Below, in pieces: positions 99 through 17,177 of a stretch of 18,612 nucleotides of DNA. This DNA is from a virus. Taxonomy: Duplodnaviria; Heunggongvirae; Uroviricota; Caudoviricetes. The stretch is taken from IMG/VR virus record IMGVR_UViG_2645727905_000004, positions 1-18,612 of that record; one strand, 5' to 3'. Under the pieces are notes generated by a model, which did no database searches, was not told where the DNA came from, and saw nothing but the letters and a program-made list of their open reading frames with translations. The stretch's first letter is position 1; each line of letters begins with the position of its first letter. The translations under genes were made by a program, and so were the position numbers.

Positions 99-743
99 CA
101 CACAGGTATCATGCTCAATAACAAAGTGCTACCTGTAACCATTTACAACATAGTACCATTCAATAAAACATTCTGGAATTTAATCAAAAACAGCCAGGAA
201 TGCCCTACAAATACAGATAACGTATTGAATGAATGCTTTAATAACCGTTGCACTCTGCAAATATGTCCTTATGGGCTAAAACAACAAAATCCATAAGGAG
301 TTTACTCACATCTGACAAAATCAATATAAACAGCCCCTCCGGAGAGGGGCTGGAGAGTGGCGCTATGTGCCATTGCATGGTGCCGGGTGCCTCCCGGTGA
401 ATTCAGTACCAGCACCTGAATCCGCGATTATCCCATATACCTACTCGCTGATTGCCCCTCCGCACAGGGGGATTCACCATGCCAGTTTCTTTTAACAAAC
501 TCCCCGCAAACCAGACAACAGTCAACCGCCTGAATTGTGAAGTATTTAAAAATTTCTCCCGCTAACTGATACCCGGCTAACAGTCTGGCGTTTTCTTTTT
601 CAGCAACGGGAAAGCAACAACCACCACACCCGCCACCAGCACACCGTCAGCCAGCACTGACATTATCCGGCTGCTGCAATGCCATTCACAAAAACAGTAA
701 GCAATCACTTTTTACCGTAACAGGTGATAATCCAGATATGTAT

Positions 744-1207: not shown

Positions 1208-1284
1208 TGGCGCGCTGTACTGGATTCGAACCAGTGACCGATTGCTTAGAAGGCAATTGCTCTGTCCGGCTGAGCTAACAACGC
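1208..1284 (-). tRNA. tRNA-Arg (anticodon UCU), phage-encoded
   Basis: Reverse complement GCGTTGTTAGCTCAGCCGGACAGAGCAATTGCCTTCTAAGCAATCGGTCACTGGTTCGAATCCAGTACAGCGCGCCA folds as a cloverleaf with anticodon loop CTTCTAA, T-arm GGTTCGAATCC and CCA end. Confidence 0.85.
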
Positions 1285-1385
1285 TGAATACCGATAATGG
1301 ACCGCCATCGGGGACCCGCCCCCCGCACCAACAACCCTGTTATCGTGTCGTCTGCTCTTCCTGATAAGCTAATGGCGGTTTGTGA

Positions 1386-1461
1386 TGGTGGCCCTTGCTG
1401 GATTTGAACCAGCGACCTGGCGATTATGAGTCGCTCGCTCTCACCACTGAGCTAAAGGGCC
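1386..1461 (-). tRNA. tRNA with CAU anticodon, ileX/ileZ-like (tRNA-Ile2 with lysidine; Met not excluded by anticodon alone)
   Basis: Reverse complement GGCCCTTTAGCTCAGTGGTGAGAGCGAGCGACTCATAATCGCCAGGTCGCTGGTTCAAATCCAGCAAGGGCCACCA; 76 nt cloverleaf, anticodon loop CTCATAA, closely resembles E. coli ileX as recalled; one A-C mismatch at the top of the anticodon stem. Confidence 0.8.
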
Positions 1462-4306: not shown

Positions 4307-4462
4307 TTACTCCTCAGGTTCGTAAGCTGTGAAGACAGCGACCTCCGTCTGGCCGGTTCGGATTCGTACCTCGCAGAGGTCTTTCCTCGTTACCAGTGCC
4401 GTCACTATGACGGTTAAACAGATGACGATCAGGGCGATTAACATCGCCTTTTGCTGCTTCAT
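4307..4462 (-). CDS. hokD: Hok-family type I toxin (HokD/RelF-type small membrane peptide)
   Basis: 51 aa MKQQKAMLIALIVICLTVIVTALVTRKDLCEVRIRTGQTEVAVFTAYEPEE, matching HokD as recalled; SD AAGGAG upstream; an in-frame upstream ATG at 4519 gives the 70-aa ORF in the track. Confidence 0.85.
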   Translation of the reverse strand: MKQQKAMLIALIVICLTVIVTALVTRKDLCEVRIRTGQTEVAVFTAYEPEE

Positions 4463-4753
4463 AGCCTGCTTCTCCTTGCCTTTCGGCACGTAAGAGGCTA
4501 ACCTACATTTGTGAGACATAGATTGGGCCTCAGATTAATGTTAAGCGTCGTGCAGGACGCGTAATGTTAACTGGGGCTTTTCTCTATCTGCCTTTTGGTG
4601 TTCATGCCTGAGACAGATAGCCTCAAGCACCCGCAGTCATTCTACTTAACTAAGATTTCCCCGCAAACCGTTTTTATCCCCAGCTGCAAATCGAATACAC
4701 AACAAGTGCTGCCGCCATTGCAATTCCTGTCGTTGTGAATGCCTCCGGCCAGG

Positions 4754-6008: not shown

Positions 6009-6770
6009 TCACCGCTGCAGCTCTCCGGTCGCGGTAATATCCCGAAGAATATCCCGGTGCTTGTTCAGCTCCCGCAGCGCGGCGCAGACTCGTTCCCACT
6101 TCTGGACATGACTTTTCGCCCGACGCAGTTCGAGGTTTGCCATATGCAGCGATGGTAAAATCAGGTCATCCGCTCGCGTTTCAGTAAACGATGGCAGCGA
6201 CTGCACAATGCCCGCTACAGTTTCTGTTTTAATTTCTTCCTGTGTTGCGGCTTCCCGGACTGGTAACGCAACACCTGCTGGCTGAGGAAAGGTCTTACCA
6301 TCATTTTCCGTTACCGATGCTGCTTTCGGCTCTGCTGGTAAATTACCGCCCGGCATGCAGTAACGAAATTTACCGCTCTGATTAACGCGTGCCAGCCGCC
6401 CCGTTGCGGTTACCACCGCCAGCGTGGAAGCAACCTTGCGAGTACTGATGCCGAACTTACCCGCCAGTTCCTCACACGTTTTAGCCCCATCCTGACCGAT
6501 AAACTCAATCATCATGTCTGCGGTAACTTTTTGTTCGACCTCCCCGGTCAGCATATCCTGTGCTTCAGATTTTACTGGCCGCTCTTCGGTTACCAGGGAT
6601 TCACTTTCGCCAGCCAGAAACCAGGTGTGACCAGTTTTATCAACGACGCCATTTCTTTTGAGTTCCCACAGCTCGTTGAGAACCTCTTCACGACTGATAT
6701 CAAGTCGCGCGGCCAGTTCTACCGATGTGGCTTTTCCCATTGCTTTCAGTGCGTCAAAAACGGTTTCCAT
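6009..6770 (-). CDS. prophage protein with two winged-helix-like repeats (DUF1627-like)
   Basis: 253 aa; internal repeat [29 protein letters not shown] and [29 protein letters not shown]; GGAGG SD 9 nt upstream of the ATG. Confidence 0.55.
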
Positions 6771-6791: not shown

Positions 6792-7538
6792 TTACTTCAC
6801 AACCCTCAGGTGTCTGACATTCGAACGCCAGCTCTCCCAGTTAAAATTCACCCAGCGACCACCGTTCATGACCATGCGGTCCATCACACGCTCGCCAAGA
6901 AGCGTACTCATCGCTACGTGGTTCAGGTTCGTCAGCATTCCGACACTACGCATCGAAGCCGTTCTGCGGTCGACTATCTGGTTCAGTGTGACCTGCTCGT
7001 TGCGCGTATCCCGCTGCATTCCGATTTCATCCAGGACAAGCAGGTCAACATCACACAACCCCTGTAAAAATTTTTCGCCTGAGTTTTTGTTGTCGTAGCT
7101 GTTGTGTAACGCCAGCATCACATCAGCCACCGTTATCACAATCACGCTGCGACCTTTCGCCAGAAGATGATTGCCAATGGCGGCTGCAAGGTGGTTCTTT
7201 CCGGTACCCGGCTTACCGCTGAACACAAAATTCGTGCACCCGGTCATCAGTTCGTCAGCGATGGATTTTGCCTGGCTCAGCGCGTGTTTTTGCCCGTCGT
7301 TCTGCACCTGATAATTCGCAAACGAGCATTTGCTGTGCAGAGGCTGGATGCCCGAACGATTCAGGATTTTTTCCACCCGCAACTGGCGATTCTGGCGGTT
7401 GATCTCCTCGCTACGTTTTCGCCCTTCTGCCAGTTGCCACTCGCGCCACTCGTCCACTGTCCGGTACGGCGCGATTACATGCTGCGGGGTCAGCTTACGG
7501 ATACGCTCAAGAACACCACCTGTCGCGATATTTTTCAT
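6792..7538 (-). CDS. DnaC-like replicative helicase loader (phage P-analogue, AAA+ ATPase)
   Basis: 248 aa; Walker A GKPGTGKNHLAAAIG and Walker B LLVLDEIG; immediately downstream of the O-like initiator. Confidence 0.85.
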   Translation of the reverse strand: MKNIATGGVLERIRKLTPQHVIAPYRTVDEWREWQLAEGRKRSEEINRQNRQLRVEKILNRSGIQPLHSKCSFANYQVQNDGQKHALSQAKSIADELMTGCTNFVFSGKPGTGKNHLAAAIGNHLLAKGRSVIVITVADVMLALHNSYDNKNSGEKFLQGLCDVDLLVLDEIGMQRDTRNEQVTLNQIVDRRTASMRSVGMLTNLNHVAMSTLLGERVMDRMVMNGGRWVNFNWESWRSNVRHLRVVK

Positions 7539-9321: not shown

Positions 9322-9741
9322 ATGGACAAATATGAATTTAGACGACAGCAACTCATCAAAATTCGTGATGAGAAATGCGATGGTAAAGCGGTTAACGTGG
9401 CCAGAAAGATCGGGCGCGAGCCTTCTTATGTATCAAGAATGTTGTACCCAGAGGGGAAAAAGGGAAAAAAACGGATCGCTGATGATATGGTGGAGATTAT
9501 CGAAGAGTCCTTTGGGTTACCCCGGGGATGGATGGATGGTATCGTTTCATCATCAACGAACACAGCCTCCAGTTATGAAACAAGGGTTCTAACGCCACGA
9601 CAACGTATTTTTTTAGATCTCTTAGACGAACTGCCAGAAAGTGAAGCGGATAACTTATTAAAAACTCTTGAAGAGAAAAAACAGTATTACAATATGATCT
9701 ACGAAGAAATCCGTAAAAAGAAAGCACAAAACGCATCATAG
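9322..9741 (+). CDS. prophage repressor, XRE-family HTH, DicA-like
   Basis: 139 aa; HTH KAVNVARKIGREPSYVSRML; C-terminal segment LTPRQRIFLDLLDELPESEADNLL resembles the DicA C-terminal region as recalled; flanked by operator palindromes. Confidence 0.7.
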   Translation: MDKYEFRRQQLIKIRDEKCDGKAVNVARKIGREPSYVSRMLYPEGKKGKKRIADDMVEIIEESFGLPRGWMDGIVSSSTNTASSYETRVLTPRQRIFLDLLDELPESEADNLLKTLEEKKQYYNMIYEEIRKKKAQNAS

Positions 9742-10322: not shown

Positions 10323-10541
10323 ATGCAGAAACGAGAACCCGTCATCATCGCGCCAGACTATACCGATGATGAACTTTATGAGTGGATGCACCAGAAAATT
10401 AAGGCTGCGCAGGACCTGAAATGGGCCAATGAAGCCAGGGCTAAGCAGGCTGAAAATCTGTCCGCTCTGGAGCAGGATATCACCAATCTGGAAAAAGCAG
10501 CGGCATTAAGCATTGCCAGAATGATTACATACCCACGTTAA
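10323..10541 (+). CDS. ydfC: YdfC-like protein (dicB operon)
   Basis: 72 aa; GAGGAA SD 5 nt upstream; position and length match Qin ydfC. Confidence 0.7.
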   Translation: MQKREPVIIAPDYTDDELYEWMHQKIKAAQDLKWANEARAKQAENLSALEQDITNLEKAAALSIARMITYPR

Positions 10542-10563
10542 TAGCTAACCAACGAGGCTAATA

Positions 10564-10971
10564 ATGGAATTTAAAGATTTACCAAAAGAAATCCAGACAA
10601 TTGCTGCAACGACTCTCGGTGATAGTCTGGTGAAAATTGACCCGGCATACACCAAAAAAGAAACCATCGATAATATGGTTCGTAATGTGCGCAATGCTTT
10701 TTCTGGGCTATATGGTTCTGATAATCAAAAGCAGGAAAGCGATGTTAATAAACGGGTAATTTCTGTTTGCGTGAATGGCCATGTTCTTTCATCAATCAAA
10801 ACAGAAACGGCGACAGTCTTCGATTGCCTTTGCATTGTACAGAGCCTTGTTGATGCCCTGTTTCGTTCAGTGAATTTAGAAAATGATGCAAATCTGCGAG
10901 GGCGCACAATAGCACATCCATATGCACATACTTTAGGCTCTGTGGATATCAAAGATCCCACAAATCTTTAA
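10564..10971 (+). CDS. hypothetical protein, inserted gene between ydfC and dicF
   Basis: 135 aa; GAGG SD 6 nt upstream; AT-richer than flanking operon genes; no family recognised; absent from the K-12 Qin arrangement as recalled. Confidence 0.55.
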   Translation: MEFKDLPKEIQTIAATTLGDSLVKIDPAYTKKETIDNMVRNVRNAFSGLYGSDNQKQESDVNKRVISVCVNGHVLSSIKTETATVFDCLCIVQSLVDALFRSVNLENDANLRGRTIAHPYAHTLGSVDIKDPTNL

Positions 10972-11182
10972 TGAAATAGTTAACGCGAATTGTACTTGCT
11001 CTTTCAGTTGCTTTCAGAATACGCGTTGAAACTGCTGGCGGTAATTTGGTATTCCATTTATTAAAATCATGCCCGGGAAAGTACTCTTCGAAAATACTTT
11101 TAACTGCAGACTCGCCTATTGAAATGCTGCTTACCATGCGATTTTGATAAAGGCATTTAGCAATAAGAGTTGATTTTAACAT
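10949..11182 (-). CDS. hypothetical small protein convergent with, and overlapping, the 135-aa ORF
   Basis: 77 aa; AGGAGG SD 4 nt upstream of the ATG at 11182; 3' end overlaps the 3' end of the plus-strand ORF by 23 bp. Confidence 0.45.
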   Translation of the reverse strand: MLKSTLIAKCLYQNRMVSSISIGESAVKSIFEEYFPGHDFNKWNTKLPPAVSTRILKATERASTIRVNYFIKDLWDL

Positions 11183-11505
11183 TCACCCTCCTGAGGGTTG
11201 GTAATTAAGGAGTTCTCCATGGGTGAAGTGGAGTGCGTGCGCCGGACACGGGTGAACATCCGGCACTGACAGTTTACTGAAAGGATATTTCTCTGAAAAG
11301 TCAGAGCATAACGCGAAAGCGCACGGCGAGGTTGCTGGTTCATAGATAGCCTGTCGTTAAATTTTCGTCGACCGTGCGCTTCCGGTTGTGGCACTCCGCG
11401 AAATGGCGCGGCGGTAAGTATGGCGGGGTTATTCCTTCCCCGTTGAGGACACCGGGTTGTCAGGTTGACCATACGCCTGAGTGACAACTCCGCTACAACA
11501 ACCCA

Positions 11506-11565
11506 TGTTGATTACCTTTTGGCGGGTATTCGTTTTGTTTTTCCCGTGATACCCGCCCCTTTTAA
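11506..11565 (+). ncRNA. dicF: DicF-like small RNA (variant) ending in an intrinsic terminator
   Basis: Sequence TTGATTACCTTTTGGCGGGTATTCGTTTTGTTTTTCCCGTGATACCCGCCCCTTTT resembles DicF as recalled (GGCGG..GTTTT..CCGTGA..CCGCCC + U-run); sits between ydfC and dicB as in Qin; boundaries approximate. Confidence 0.5.
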
Positions 11566-11740
11566 AGTGAATTTTGTGATGCGGTGAATGCGGCTCAGCG
11601 CACGCGGAACAGTTAAAACAAGCGGTCTTTTACTTGCGTAACAGACATCAACTAACAATCCGGCGTTAATGGTTTACTGGTTAACGTCACCTGGAGGCAC
11701 CAGGCGCCGCATCACAAAATTCATTGTTGAGGACGCGATA

Positions 11741-11929
11741 ATGGAAACGTTATTACCAAACGTTAATACGTCTGAAGGTTGTTTTGAAATTGGTGTCACT
11801 ATCAGTAACCCAGTATTTACTGAAGATGCCATTAACAAGAGAAAACAAGAACGGGAGCTATTAAATAAAATATGCATTGTTTCAATGCTGGCCCGTTTAC
11901 GCCTGATGCAAAAAGGATGCTGGCAATGA
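11741..11929 (+). CDS. dicB: cell division inhibitor DicB
   Basis: 62 aa METLLPNVNTSEGCFEIGVTISNPVFTEDAINKRKQERELLNKICIVSMLARLRLMQKGCWQ, near-identical to K-12 DicB as recalled; the longer track ORF starts upstream in frame. Confidence 0.85.
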   Translation: METLLPNVNTSEGCFEIGVTISNPVFTEDAINKRKQERELLNKICIVSMLARLRLMQKGCWQ

Positions 11930-14739: not shown

Positions 14740-14943
14740 ATGAGCAACTTATTTTTAACCGAAGATGAATTGCTAATATTAACGGGCTGCAAATATGCAA
14801 GCCACCAGCGAAAATGGTTAACGGAAAACGGGCTTCCGTTCTATACCAATCGTAGTGGCAAACCGATTGTCAGCCGGGATCTATTTACCTGCAATAAAAC
14901 TTTACCACCACGCGAGGTAGAGCCGAATTTTGGTGCAATCTAA
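14740..14943 (+). CDS. excisionase-like small DNA-binding protein
   Basis: 67 aa directly upstream of int with overlapping stop/start (TAATG). Confidence 0.55.
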   Translation: MSNLFLTEDELLILTGCKYASHQRKWLTENGLPFYTNRSGKPIVSRDLFTCNKTLPPREVEPNFGAI

Positions 14944-15968
14944 TGGGAAGACGAAGGAAAAATCCTGAACACGAAAAACTACCTCCAAATGTATACCCAA
15001 ATAAATATAGTTATGTATGGAAACCAACATCCAGAGAATCTGTCACACTAACCGCCATCAAGGATGGTTTAGCTGCTTTATGGAAAAAGTATGAGGAAAC
15101 TGTAAATAATCGCGATCGTGCAATGACATTCGGTCGCTTGTGGGAAAAATTCCTCGCCAGCGCCTATTACAGTGACCTCAGTCCAAGAACACAAAAAGAT
15201 TATCTGCAACATCAAAAAAAGTTGCTTGCCGTATTCGGTAAGGTGCCGGCAGATTCCATAAAACCAGAACACATCCGTCGATACATGGACAAGAGAGGGG
15301 AACAGAGTAAAACGCAAGCCAACCATGAAAAAAGCAGTATGTCCCGCGTTTACAGTTGGGGGTATGAGCGAGGGTACGTGAAGGCTAACCCATGTGCAGG
15401 TGTAAGTAAATTCAAGGCCAAAAACCGCGAACGATATGTAACCGACAAAGAATACCAGGCAGTATTAAGCGTTGCACCTCTTCCTGTTTTTATCGCAATG
15501 GAAATTGCCTATCTGTGTGCAGCGAGGGTTTCCGATGTGTTATCGCTGAAATGGGAGCAGATTGGAAACGACGGAATCTTTATCCAGCAAGGGAAAACAG
15601 GAAAAAAACAGATAAAAGCATGGAGTCCACGATTACAGGCGGCGATCGAAAAAGCAAAACAGTTACCAACATCCGCCTATGTAATCAGTAATCAATACGG
15701 CAACCGATATATGTACAAAGGCTTTAACGAAATGTGGGTAGAAGCAAGAAATCGCGCAGGCAAAATTTCAGGTATTTTAACCGACTTCACCTTTCATGAT
15801 CTGAAGGCGAAAGGAATTTCAGACTATGAAGGAAGCAGTCGGGATAAGCAACTTTTCTCTGGTCACAAAACCGAGGGGCAAGTGCTAATCTATGACAGGA
15901 AGGTTAAAGTTTCACCGACACTTGATGTCCCGTTACCTGAAAATATTCCAAGAAAATATTCCAAGTAA
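14943..15968 (+). CDS. phage integrase, tyrosine recombinase
   Basis: 341 aa; catalytic-region motifs AARVSDV, FHDLKAKG, HKTEGQVLIYDR; adjacent to a tRNA gene. Confidence 0.9.
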   Translation: MGRRRKNPEHEKLPPNVYPNKYSYVWKPTSRESVTLTAIKDGLAALWKKYEETVNNRDRAMTFGRLWEKFLASAYYSDLSPRTQKDYLQHQKKLLAVFGKVPADSIKPEHIRRYMDKRGEQSKTQANHEKSSMSRVYSWGYERGYVKANPCAGVSKFKAKNRERYVTDKEYQAVLSVAPLPVFIAMEIAYLCAARVSDVLSLKWEQIGNDGIFIQQGKTGKKQIKAWSPRLQAAIEKAKQLPTSAYVISNQYGNRYMYKGFNEMWVEARNRAGKISGILTDFTFHDLKAKGISDYEGSSRDKQLFSGHKTEGQVLIYDRKVKVSPTLDVPLPENIPRKYSK

Positions 15969-16020: not shown

Positions 16021-16110
16021 TGGCGGAGAGAGGGGGATTTGAACCCCCGGTGGAGTTGCCCCCACTCCGGTTTTCGAGACCGGTCCGTTCAGCCGCTCCG
16101 GCATCTCTCC
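16021..16110 (-). tRNA. serU: tRNA-Ser (anticodon CGA), serU; prophage attachment site
   Basis: Reverse complement GGAGAGATGCCGGAGCGGCTGAACGGACCGGTCTCGAAAACCGGAGTGGGGGCAACTCCACCGGGGGTTCAAATCCCCCTCTCTCCGCCA, 90 nt with long variable arm. Confidence 0.9.
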
Positions 16111-17101: not shown

Positions 17102-17177
17102 TCCTCTGTAGTTCAGTCGGTAGAACGGCGGACTGTTAATCCGTATGTCACTGGTTCGAGTCCAGTCAGAGGAGCCA
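17102..17177 (+). tRNA. asnT: tRNA-Asn (anticodon GUU), host
   Basis: TCCTCTGTAGTTCAGTCGGTAGAACGGCGGACTGTTAATCCGTATGTCACTGGTTCGAGTCCAGTCAGAGGAGCCA; which asn paralogue it is follows from K-12 synteny with mtfA and serU. Confidence 0.9.

What the first reader, a model, noticed from the sequence alone, without database searches (positions are those of the whole stretch)
10564..11182. Uncharacterised two-gene insertion in the dicB operon between ydfC and dicF
Relative to the K-12 Qin arrangement (ydfC, about 110 bp, dicF, dicB as recalled), this window has about 860 bp extra. It holds a 135-aa ORF translationally linked behind ydfC and a convergent 77-aa ORF with a strong AGGAGG SD whose 3' end overlaps the first by 23 bp. 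Both are AT-richer than the surrounding operon and match no family I recognise. A convergent small-gene pair in a repressor-controlled early operon is typical of prophage morons such as toxin-antitoxin, superinfection-exclusion or anti-defence modules.
Basis: partly seen in the sequence, partly recalled or inferred. Interest (0 to 1): 0.6.

Follow-up and report, generated by a model that had tools for sequence, protein, structure and literature searches.

The report
Conserved tail-to-tail prophage gene pair
The two small genes are real and form an uncharacterised, tail-to-tail overlapping pair conserved in prophages of many enteric bacteria; it is most likely a lysogen-expressed protein plus an early-expressed antagonist, but no function has been shown.

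Summary
Both ORFs exist exactly as described: ORF135 at 10564-10971 (+) and ORF77 at 10949-11182 (-), with a 23-bp 3' overlap and an AGGAGG ribosome-binding site. Against K-12 Qin they form a clean 634-bp indel (10562-11195), not about 860 bp.

Both genes are under purifying selection. ORF77 belongs to a family of ~75-aa proteins (163 clusters at 50% identity). Its predicted five-helix fold is very confident (pLDDT 96.9) and matches no solved structure.

In about 90 loci from Escherichia, Klebsiella, Serratia, Dickeya, Proteus, Photorhabdus and more distant bacteria, ORF77 is convergent with a partner. That partner is homologous to ORF135 residues 58-135, and the overlap is almost always 23 nt. 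In non-E. coli lambdoid prophages the partner is usually the first gene after the cI operators, while ORF77 faces the early promoter and has its own promoter-like block.

ORF135 fuses this partner domain to an N-terminal module. In E. coli, that module is also joined to at least three other C-terminal domains, each with its own convergent small gene.

The best reading (confidence ~0.4) is a lysogen-expressed effector with an induction-expressed antagonist, arranged as a noncontiguous operon like Tai/Ati. Function is untested. The pair is new in sequence and fold but familiar in design.

The parts
10562..11195 (.). 634-bp cassette present here and absent from K-12 Qin. It begins 2 nt before the ORF135 ATG and ends 13 nt upstream of the ORF77 ATG.
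   Evidence: Pairwise alignment with NC_000913 Qin. GC is 0.39-0.41 against 0.46-0.54 in the flanks.
10564..10971 (+). ORF135 (WP_000394520.1, phrog_1363). Residues 1 to about 52 form the N-terminal 'MEFKDLPKEIQ...SGLY' module, 46-62 are a predicted disordered linker, and 58-135 are the partner ('A') domain.
   Evidence: Domain split. dN/dS below 1.
10735..10968 (+). A domain of ORF135 (residues 58-135): a beta-hairpin, a long helix and a low-confidence tail carrying the invariant motif LE-x2-AN-x2-G-x-T-x2-H. It is homologous to stand-alone 77-107-aa partners in other genera.
   Evidence: BLASTP 37% identity, E 3e-17 to the Serratia partner. Alignments A3 and A7. AF2 model.
10949..11182 (-). 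ORF77 (WP_000920491.1, phrog_10348): a soluble five-helix protein with a conserved W43-N44 and conserved N- and C-termini.
   Evidence: (pLDDT 96.9).
10949..10971 (.). 23-nt tail-to-tail overlap holding both stop codons. It is near-palindromic (TTAAAGA-N9-TCTTTAA in most enterobacterial loci) and has no stable hairpin.
   Evidence: Folding z-scores of about 0 on both strands.
11187..11192 (-). AGGAGG Shine-Dalgarno site of ORF77. It is shared with the alternative 63-aa cassette junction (tcaccctcctgagggttgg).
10323..10541 (+). ydfC, the upstream gene of the same operon. A YdfC-like gene also precedes the partner in Proteus-type loci.
9322..9741 (+). 139-aa gene in the position that dicA occupies in K-12, heading the + strand early operon (context only; its repressor function was not tested).
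   Evidence: Operon logic from bioRxiv 10.1101/2023.04.14.536235.
11521..11563 (+). Terminator hairpin at the position homologous to dicF. It is diverged and is not a recognisable DicF.
11741..11929 (+). dicB. Transcription from the early promoter must cross ORF77 in antisense to reach it.
   Evidence: Pfam DicB, E 3e-40. Annotation.

Best explanation
ORF77 and the A domain of ORF135 form a self-contained, antisense-coupled two-gene module carried in the immediate-early region of temperate phages.

Proposed mechanism (inferred):
1. In the lysogen the early operon is repressed, here by the DicA-position repressor. ORF135 is therefore not made, and ORF77 is transcribed from its own side. ORF77 acts as a prophage accessory effector, most plausibly one that interferes with development of other phages.
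2. On induction the early promoter fires. RNA polymerase crosses ORF77 in antisense, which shuts it down by collision and by forming an RNA duplex over the shared 3' ends.
3. The operon-encoded partner is made at once and neutralises the ORF77 protein already present, probably through its conserved, low-confidence (probably flexible) C-terminal motif. The prophage's own lytic cycle is then spared.

This is the 'noncontiguous operon' logic described for Tai/Ati in phage phi80.

Shown here: both genes are real, they co-diverge as a linked pair, the tail-to-tail geometry is fixed, and the partner lies next to the repressor/operator region.

Inferred, not shown: expression timing, a protein-protein interaction, and any anti-phage activity.
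For: 1. Obligate pairing. In about 90 loci the ORF77 homologue is convergent with an A-domain gene. The overlap is 23 nt in nearly all and 26 nt in two. This holds for distant members at about 40-45% identity: 23 nt in L102/L103, with the partner also present in L107.
2. Co-divergence. Non-synonymous distances of the two genes correlate with rho 0.85 over 91 pairs, and both have dN/dS below 1.
3. Position. In Klebsiella and Serratia prophages, operator repeats identical to those at cI/cro lie between cI and the partner. That makes the partner the first early-left gene, with ORF77 facing that promoter. The same cI-adjacent layout recurs in 7 more diverse loci.
4. Independent expression. ORF77 homologues outside E. 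coli share a conserved upstream block with an extended -10 (TGGTATCTT) and TTCACC about 30 nt before the ATG. In L102, ORF77 has a promoter-like site, and a terminator lies just beyond the partner's start, so its mRNA would be antisense to the whole partner gene.
5. No terminator at the junction, so each transcript probably reads into the other gene.
6. Protein shapes. ORF77 is a compact, very confidently folded domain. The partner's invariant motif sits in a low-confidence tail, which is typical of a binding peptide.
7. Each gene can occur without the other in a way that fits this model. An ORF77-like gene stands alone in a non-prophage context in a Psychrosphaera MAG. The A domain occurs without ORF77 in 201-aa fusions. 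An orphan toxin would be harder to explain.
8. Precedents. Tai/Ati is arranged the same way, with the immune gene on the opposite strand inside a phage operon and the counter-defence made only on induction (PMC11364771). BstA is a lysogen-expressed defence encoded just downstream of cI, with cognate self-immunity (PMC8585504).
Against: - No activity, expression or interaction data exist, and no co-fold prediction could be run.
- In this window and in E. coli generally, the conserved promoter block of ORF77 is missing, and no promoter scoring at least 9 of 12 lies upstream. ORF77 may therefore be poorly expressed or differently controlled here.
- Orientation relative to the early operon is not universal. 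In L103 the ORF77-like gene runs with the YfdP/DUF2303 operon and the partner is antisense. In L102 the module lies outside the operon.
- There is no homology to any known defence or counter-defence protein.
- Net charge of the two proteins is not conserved, so no toxin/antitoxin-like charge signature exists.
- The orphan cases are few: one MAG, and 8 of 5426 genomes.
Confidence: 0.4

Rival explanations
1. Toxin-guard polarity. The operon-encoded partner (the A domain, and in E. coli the N-module-X proteins in general) is a host-directed, potentially toxic early protein. The convergent small protein ORF77 is its cognate inhibitor, made in the lysogen to buffer leaky early transcription.
For: The dicBF operon is a known set of toxic, DicA-repressed early genes that switch on spontaneously in a subpopulation. 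The partner is an immediate-early gene. At least four alternative cassettes pair a variable C-terminal domain with its own convergent small gene, reminiscent of effector-immunity pairs. An orphan ORF77-like gene would also fit an orphan antidote.
Against: The A domain occurs without ORF77 in 201-aa fusions, which would leave a toxin unguarded. The partner's conserved element is a short motif in a low-confidence tail rather than an enzyme-like fold. No similarity to any toxin family was found. The E. coli ORF77 lacks an evident promoter, which a constitutive guard would need.
Confidence: 0.2
2. Mainly an RNA- or transcription-level device. Convergent transcription from the ORF77 side damps leaky read-through of the early operon into dicF/dicB, by transcriptional interference and antisense pairing. 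On this reading the protein products are secondary.
For: The tail-to-tail geometry is fixed at 23 nt. There is no terminator at the junction. In L102 the terminator for the ORF77 transcript lies beyond the partner's start.
Against: Both proteins are under purifying selection across saturated synonymous divergence. ORF77 has a highly confident conserved fold and 163 family clusters of constant length. The 23-nt overlap is explained by the conserved C-termini of both proteins even where the sequence is not palindromic (L102, L103).
Confidence: 0.1
3. Two unrelated morons that happen to be neighbours, with the overlap arising only from genome compaction.
For: Phage early regions are mosaic and gene-dense. 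Neither protein has a known function.
Against: The pairing persists in every prophage locus examined, down to about 40% identity and in different flanking contexts and orientations. The distances of the two genes correlate at rho 0.85.
Confidence: 0.05

Closest known systems
Tai/Ati immune and counter-defence pair of phage phi80 and relatives, arranged as a noncontiguous operon (PMC11364771)
   Same: A small accessory gene sits on the opposite strand inside a phage operon, next to an operon-encoded gene. In the published model the opposite-strand gene is constitutive in lysogeny, the operon gene is made only on induction, and it binds and neutralises the first. Both genes are inherited together.
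   Different: There is no sequence similarity. ORF77 and ORF135 gave no significant alignment (all E > 0.4) with the phi80 opposite-strand gene gp52 or its neighbour gp51 (I presumed, without checking, that these are Tai and Ati). Tai/Ati lie in the Q-controlled late operon and meet head to head. This pair lies in the repressor-controlled immediate-early operon and is tail to tail with a fixed 23-nt overlap. The target and activity of ORF77 are unknown.
BstA-aba of Salmonella prophage BTP1 (PMC8585504)
   Same: A prophage accessory locus encoded just downstream of the cI repressor. BstA is shown to be lysogen-expressed and has a cognate self-immunity element carried in the same locus.
   Different: BstA self-immunity is a 63-bp DNA element, not a protein. 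BstA is a large two-domain protein. No homology was found: PADLOC gave no hit and ORF77 matched only 12 phage records, all of its own family.
Type II toxin-antitoxin modules
   Same: Two small cognate proteins are inherited as a unit on mobile elements. One has a conserved motif in a low-confidence (possibly disordered) tail, as many antitoxins do.
   Different: The genes are convergent rather than co-transcribed. Neither matches any toxin or antitoxin family. There is no conserved charge asymmetry.
3'-overlapping antisense pairs: lambda oop/cII and type I TA loci such as txpA/RatA (from general knowledge)
   Same: Convergent transcripts overlap at their 3' ends, which allows RNase III-mediated mutual control.
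   Different: Here both strands encode conserved folded proteins. ORF77 is soluble, with a maximum 19-residue hydropathy of 0.59, and is not a membrane peptide.
PHROG families phrog_10348 (ORF77) and phrog_1363 / phrog_23433 (ORF135 and its A domain)
   Same: Direct sequence membership, with E 1e-47, 4e-47 and 1e-9.
   Different: All are annotated 'unknown function', so membership gives no mechanism.

Membership tests
Prophage defence + counter-defence pair in a noncontiguous operon (Tai/Ati type) | One gene lies on the opposite strand, embedded in a phage operon that encodes the adjacent cognate partner | tested here: met
   ORF77 (-) lies inside the + strand ydfA-ydfC-ORF135-dicB operon. The same holds in Klebsiella, Serratia and Dickeya early-left operons. 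Exceptions: L102 and L103.
Prophage defence + counter-defence pair in a noncontiguous operon (Tai/Ati type) | Sequence homology to Tai or Ati proteins | tested here: not met
   BLASTP against phi80 gp52 and gp51 gave no significant alignment. phi80 is absent from the 12 phage records that match ORF77.
Prophage defence + counter-defence pair in a noncontiguous operon (Tai/Ati type) | The opposite-strand gene is expressed in lysogeny and the partner only after induction | not testable with these tools
   Only indirect evidence: a promoter-like block upstream of non-E. coli ORF77 genes, and operators upstream of the partner.
Prophage defence + counter-defence pair in a noncontiguous operon (Tai/Ati type) | The partner protein binds and neutralises the effector, and the effector blocks other phages | not testable with these tools
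   No multimer prediction or experiment was available.
Type II toxin-antitoxin system | Both genes are co-transcribed as a bicistronic operon | tested here: not met
   The genes are convergent with a 23-nt 3' overlap.
Type II toxin-antitoxin system | Membership of a known toxin or antitoxin family or fold | tested here: not met
Type I toxin-antitoxin system (3'-overlap class) | A small hydrophobic membrane toxin with a non-coding antisense RNA antitoxin | tested here: not met
   ORF77 has GRAVY -0.13 and no hydrophobic stretch. The antisense strand encodes a conserved protein.
DicF sRNA (Rfam RF00039), named in the finding | A match to the DicF covariance model at the homologous site | tested here: not met
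   No hit at the gathering threshold or at E<=10. The alignment shows a 9-nt deletion and many substitutions. Only the terminator hairpin remains.
phrog_10348 / phrog_1363 | A significant full-length HMM match | tested here: met
   E 1.1e-47 over residues 1-77 of 77, and E 3.8e-47 over residues 1-130.

The most novel reading that the evidence does not exclude
The ydfC-dicF site would be one face of a new class of polymorphic, antisense-coupled two-gene cassettes in prophage immediate-early operons. Each cassette has an operon-strand protein, built in E. coli from a shared N-terminal module plus a swappable C-terminal domain, and a cognate convergent small protein. The invariant 23-nt tail-to-tail overlap would act as an RNA-level switch tying the two together. 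ORF77, with a fold unlike any solved structure, would be a new anti-phage or lysis-lysogeny effector, and the A-domain tail motif its dedicated antagonist. Fusion proteins such as N-A-B would act as multi-specific antidotes against the cassettes of co-resident prophages.
Probability: 0.25. Interest if true: 0.75.

Novelty: new variant of a known kind. Interest (0 to 1): 0.55.

Why it matters
The cassette is common. It occurs in 12% of complete E. coli genomes, including O157:H7 EDL933 and many O111 and O145 STEC strains, and in prophages of Klebsiella, Serratia, Salmonella, Proteus and others. Every copy examined is annotated only as 'hypothetical'.

It sits in the dicBF operon, whose products control cell division, metabolism and phage resistance. 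It must be transcribed through to reach dicF and dicB, so it could change how that toxic operon behaves in pathogenic strains.

If the defence/counter-defence reading is right, it adds a new protein family with a new fold. It would also be a second, immediate-early example of the noncontiguous-operon solution to prophage self-immunity. The hotspot with four alternative cassettes gives a natural set of cognate pairs for testing specificity.

Tried and rejected
- K-12 comparison by script: the K-12 locus file was not visible to run_python at first, so DNA alignment was used instead.
- Profile searches: PDB profile searches with both family alignments found nothing. The two families are not related to each other (hhalign probability 0.6%).
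- RNA leader idea: I considered that the conserved block upstream of non-E. coli ORF77 genes might be a structured RNA leader or riboswitch. RNAalifold gave -1.1 kcal/mol and essentially no covariation, so it was rejected in favour of a promoter/operator reading. Rfam found nothing in six related loci.
- Junction terminator idea: I considered that the overlap might be a bidirectional terminator. Folding is no better than shuffled sequence.
- Charge argument: I considered a 'basic toxin / acidic antitoxin' signature. The pI of 9.5 for the E. coli ORF77 is not conserved (homologues range from 4.9 to 6.4), so the argument was dropped.
- Locus search with distant members: the alignment of distant ORF77 relatives was too divergent for the search for related loci. 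The look-up of encoding contigs was used instead.
- Literature: searches for the WP accessions and PHROG ids found nothing. The dicBF papers do not describe these genes.

Full report
**1. Observation**

ORF135 is at 10564..10971 (+) and ORF77 at 10949..11182 (-), and they share 23 bp at their 3' ends. ORF77 is preceded by AGGAGG at 11187-11192 on the minus strand. The region is AT-richer than its flanks, with GC 0.39-0.41 against 0.46-0.54.

Aligned with the Qin prophage of K-12, the window carries one clean 634-bp block, 10562-11195, between mostly identical flanks. The block starts 2 nt before the ORF135 ATG and ends 13 nt upstream of the ORF77 ATG.

The extra DNA is 634 bp, not about 860 bp. 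The K-12 ydfC-to-dicF distance is 340 bp, not about 110 bp.

The element at the dicF position keeps a terminator hairpin (-16.8 kcal/mol). It has a 9-nt deletion and many substitutions and does not match the Rfam DicF model even at E<=10. dicB (11741-11929) and a DUF1482 gene follow.

**2. Are they genes?**

RefSeq annotates both as hypothetical proteins, WP_000394520.1 and WP_000920491.1. Pfam, NCBIfam, PADLOC and PDB sequence searches find nothing credible (only non-significant hits: NCBIfam E 0.035, PDB E>0.5). PHROGs places them in phrog_1363 and phrog_10348, both of unknown function.

ORF77 has full-length homologues of about 77 aa at 55-72% identity. They occur in Klebsiella, Serratia, Dickeya, Xenorhabdus, Morganella, Yersinia and Salmonella, and in Proteus and Photorhabdus. 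A profile search of 1.84 billion representative proteins finds 163 clusters, almost all of 74-80 aa.

Codon analysis over 14 diverse loci gives pN/pS of about 0.38 for ORF77 and 0.52 for the partner, with synonymous sites near saturation. dN/dS is 0.1-0.4 where it can be computed. Both frames are therefore protein-coding and under purifying selection.

**3. The real unit**

ORF135 is a fusion. Residues 58-135 (the 'A domain') align with stand-alone 77-107-aa proteins from other genera: 37% identity and E 3e-17 to the Serratia protein.

A script run over all fetched loci showed that in about 90 loci the ORF77 homologue is convergent with a gene carrying this A domain. The overlap is 23 nt in nearly all and 26 nt in two. 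In Proteus the partner frame is intact but uses a non-ATG start.

The arrangement persists in distant family members. The overlap is 23 nt in L102 and L103, and the partner is also present in L107. The one exception is a Psychrosphaera MAG, where a 43%-identical ORF77-like gene stands alone among chromosomal genes.

Non-synonymous distances of the two genes correlate at rho 0.85 over 91 pairs. The pairs are not independent, but the result shows that the two genes diverge together as a linked unit.

In enterobacterial loci the overlap sequence is near-palindromic (TTAAAGA-N9-TCTTTAA), so both proteins end in ...KD...L. In the distant loci the sequence differs but the 23-nt length is kept. The overlap does not fold better than shuffled sequence on either strand.

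**4. Structure**

ORF135 is modelled at pLDDT 62.8, as:
- an N-terminal helical hairpin (residues 8-47);
- a low-confidence linker (46-62);
- a beta-hairpin (65-79) followed by a long helix (85-111);
- a low-confidence tail.

The partner family's invariant residues lie at the end of the helix and in that tail, forming LE-x2-AN-x2-G-x-T-x2-H.

**5. Genomic setting**

In Klebsiella and Serratia prophages, palindromic operator repeats are shared between the cI/cro intergenic region and the cI/partner intergenic region. In L007, for example, ACAG-N7-CTGT occurs at 6492-6530 and again at 7291-7350. The partner is therefore the first gene of the repressor-controlled early-left operon, and ORF77 faces that promoter; Dickeya (L010) has the same gene order next to its HTH repressor, but no shared operator repeats were detected there. 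Seven further diverse viral contigs show a cI-like HTH+S24 gene just upstream of the partner.

Two loci, including Proteus, have a YdfC-like gene directly upstream of the partner. The ydfC-partner-ORF77 order is therefore not peculiar to E. coli, and the K-12 state could be a loss rather than the window state a gain.

Upstream of non-E. coli ORF77 genes there is a conserved block of about 90 nt. It has an extended -10 (TGGTATCTT) and TTCACC about 30 nt before the ATG. There is no support for an RNA structure in this block.

The E. coli cassette lacks the block, and no promoter scoring at least 9 of 12 lies upstream of ORF77 in the window.

Orientation relative to the early operon is not universal. 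In L103 the ORF77-like gene runs with the operon and the partner is antisense. In L102 the module lies beside the early promoter, with its own promoter-like site, and a terminator lies just beyond the partner's start.

**6. A polymorphic hotspot**

The first ~50 residues of ORF135 (MEFKDLPKEIQ...SGLY) also match several other PHROGs. In E. coli dicB operons this module is fused to other C-terminal domains, as summarised below.

| Operon-strand protein | Convergent small gene | 3' relationship | Complete E. coli genomes (of 5426) |
|---|---|---|---|
| 135 aa (N-module + A; this window) | 77 aa (ORF77) | 23-nt overlap | 656, including EDL933 |
| 212 aa (N-module + other domain) | 69 aa | abutting | 600 |
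| 179 aa (N-module + other domain) | 80 aa, zinc-ribbon-like | 20-nt overlap | 387 |
| 201 aa (N-module + A + a further segment) | 63 aa, unrelated to ORF77 | 23-nt overlap, same SD junction | 8 |
| 124 aa (N-module + other domain) | none called | - | not counted |

None of these proteins matches Pfam. Stx2 phages carry a 147-aa N-module protein without a convergent partner.

**7. Mechanism**

The layout is a conserved small gene on the opposite strand of a repressor-controlled phage operon, tail to tail with an operon gene that co-diverges with it. This matches the noncontiguous-operon design shown experimentally for Tai/Ati in phi80. There the opposite-strand immune gene is constitutive in lysogeny, and the counter-defence gene is made only on induction and binds the immune protein (PMC11364771). 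It also echoes BstA, a lysogen-expressed defence encoded just downstream of cI with cognate self-immunity (PMC8585504).

I therefore favour, at confidence about 0.4, that ORF77 is the lysogen-side effector. The A domain would be its induction-side antagonist, with antisense transcription adding RNA-level shut-off.

Points in favour:
- The partner sits in the immediate-early position.
- ORF77 has its own promoter-like block outside E. coli.
- ORF77 is a compact fold, whereas the partner's conserved element is a motif in a low-confidence tail.
- The rare orphan cases are an ORF77 without a partner and an A domain without ORF77. Both are easier to accept if neither protein is a toxin needing its antidote.

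Points against:
- There are no expression, binding or activity data.
- The E. coli ORF77 has no evident promoter.
- Orientation varies in distant loci.
- There is no homology to any known system.

Rivals:
- The reverse polarity, with a toxic early protein guarded by ORF77 (0.2).
- A mainly transcriptional or antisense damper of dicF/dicB read-through (0.1).
- Coincidental neighbours (0.05), which the conservation data strongly disfavour.

About a quarter of the probability stays with functions not listed here, for example a lysis-lysogeny regulator.

**8. Novelty and verdict**

The proteins are new families, and one has a fold not seen in the PDB. The pairing, the invariant overlap and the multi-cassette hotspot appear undescribed: literature searches returned nothing. 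The design principle has precedents.

I rate this as a new variant of a known kind, with interest about 0.55. It is a solid, widely distributed and directly testable candidate, but its function is still inferred from architecture alone.

Noticed in passing
window 11521-11563 (+): The element at the position homologous to K-12 dicF has diverged, with a 9-nt deletion, different loop and 5' sequence. It gives no Rfam DicF hit even at E<=10 but keeps a GC-rich terminator hairpin followed by CCUUUU. A third variant occurs in L096 (5100-5160). The DicF position therefore seems to hold a family of variable hairpin RNAs.
   Followed up: partly
window 11570-11718 (+) and 322-511 (-): A full STnc100 sRNA match (132 bits) lies near the phage tRNAs at 322-511. 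A weak, sub-threshold STnc100-like match (29.9 bits, E 1.7e-4) lies just upstream of dicB, sharing the CACCNGGAGGCACCNGG hairpin.
   Followed up: no
window 4457-4632 (-): There is a sok antitoxin RNA match (120 bits). The near-identical record annotates hokD next to it, so a type I TA locus lies in the same prophage.
   Followed up: no
window 1208-1461 (-), 16021-16110 (-), 17102-17177 (+): Phage-borne tRNA-Arg(tct) and tRNA-Met(cat) are present. A tRNA-Ser(cga) lies immediately after the integrase ORF (14943-15968) and is probably the attachment site. A tRNA-Asn(gtt) lies beyond it. The flank therefore differs from that of record NZ_AP045053, where yccA follows the integrase.
   Followed up: no
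window 11219-11269 (+): A 16-codon ORF (MGEVECVRRTRVNIRH) follows a strong TAAGGAG site in the ydfC-dicF spacer. Its ATG is ACG in K-12 and in L096, so it is probably not conserved.
   Followed up: partly
L005 5925-6000, L007 5925-6000, L081 4179-4254 and others: A conserved block of about 90 nt lies upstream of non-E. coli ORF77 genes. It contains nested inverted repeats (GCCTG...CAGGC, CCAC...GTGG, TCTTGG...CCAAGA) over a putative extended -10 promoter, which may be an operator for an unknown regulator. The block is absent from the E. coli cassette.
   Followed up: partly
L014 5989-6228 (Psychrosphaera MAG OZ244904): An ORF77-like gene (43% identity) sits alone between a chemoreceptor-like gene and a glycosidase-like gene, with no A-domain partner and no prophage genes nearby.
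   Followed up: partly
L099 3640-3849 and L100 3521-3763: The 69-aa and 80-aa convergent genes of two alternative cassettes share the same first five residues (MPNKP) and the same upstream junction. The 80-aa protein has a CPAC...CPEH zinc-ribbon-like motif.
   Followed up: no
LC567822 and other PPompW prophages: ORF77 is 100% identical to the window copy, while ORF135 is only 84% identical. The ORF135 differences cluster in residues 58-105, and the C-terminal tail is identical. This points to a recombination breakpoint inside the A domain that keeps the tail linked to ORF77.
   Followed up: partly
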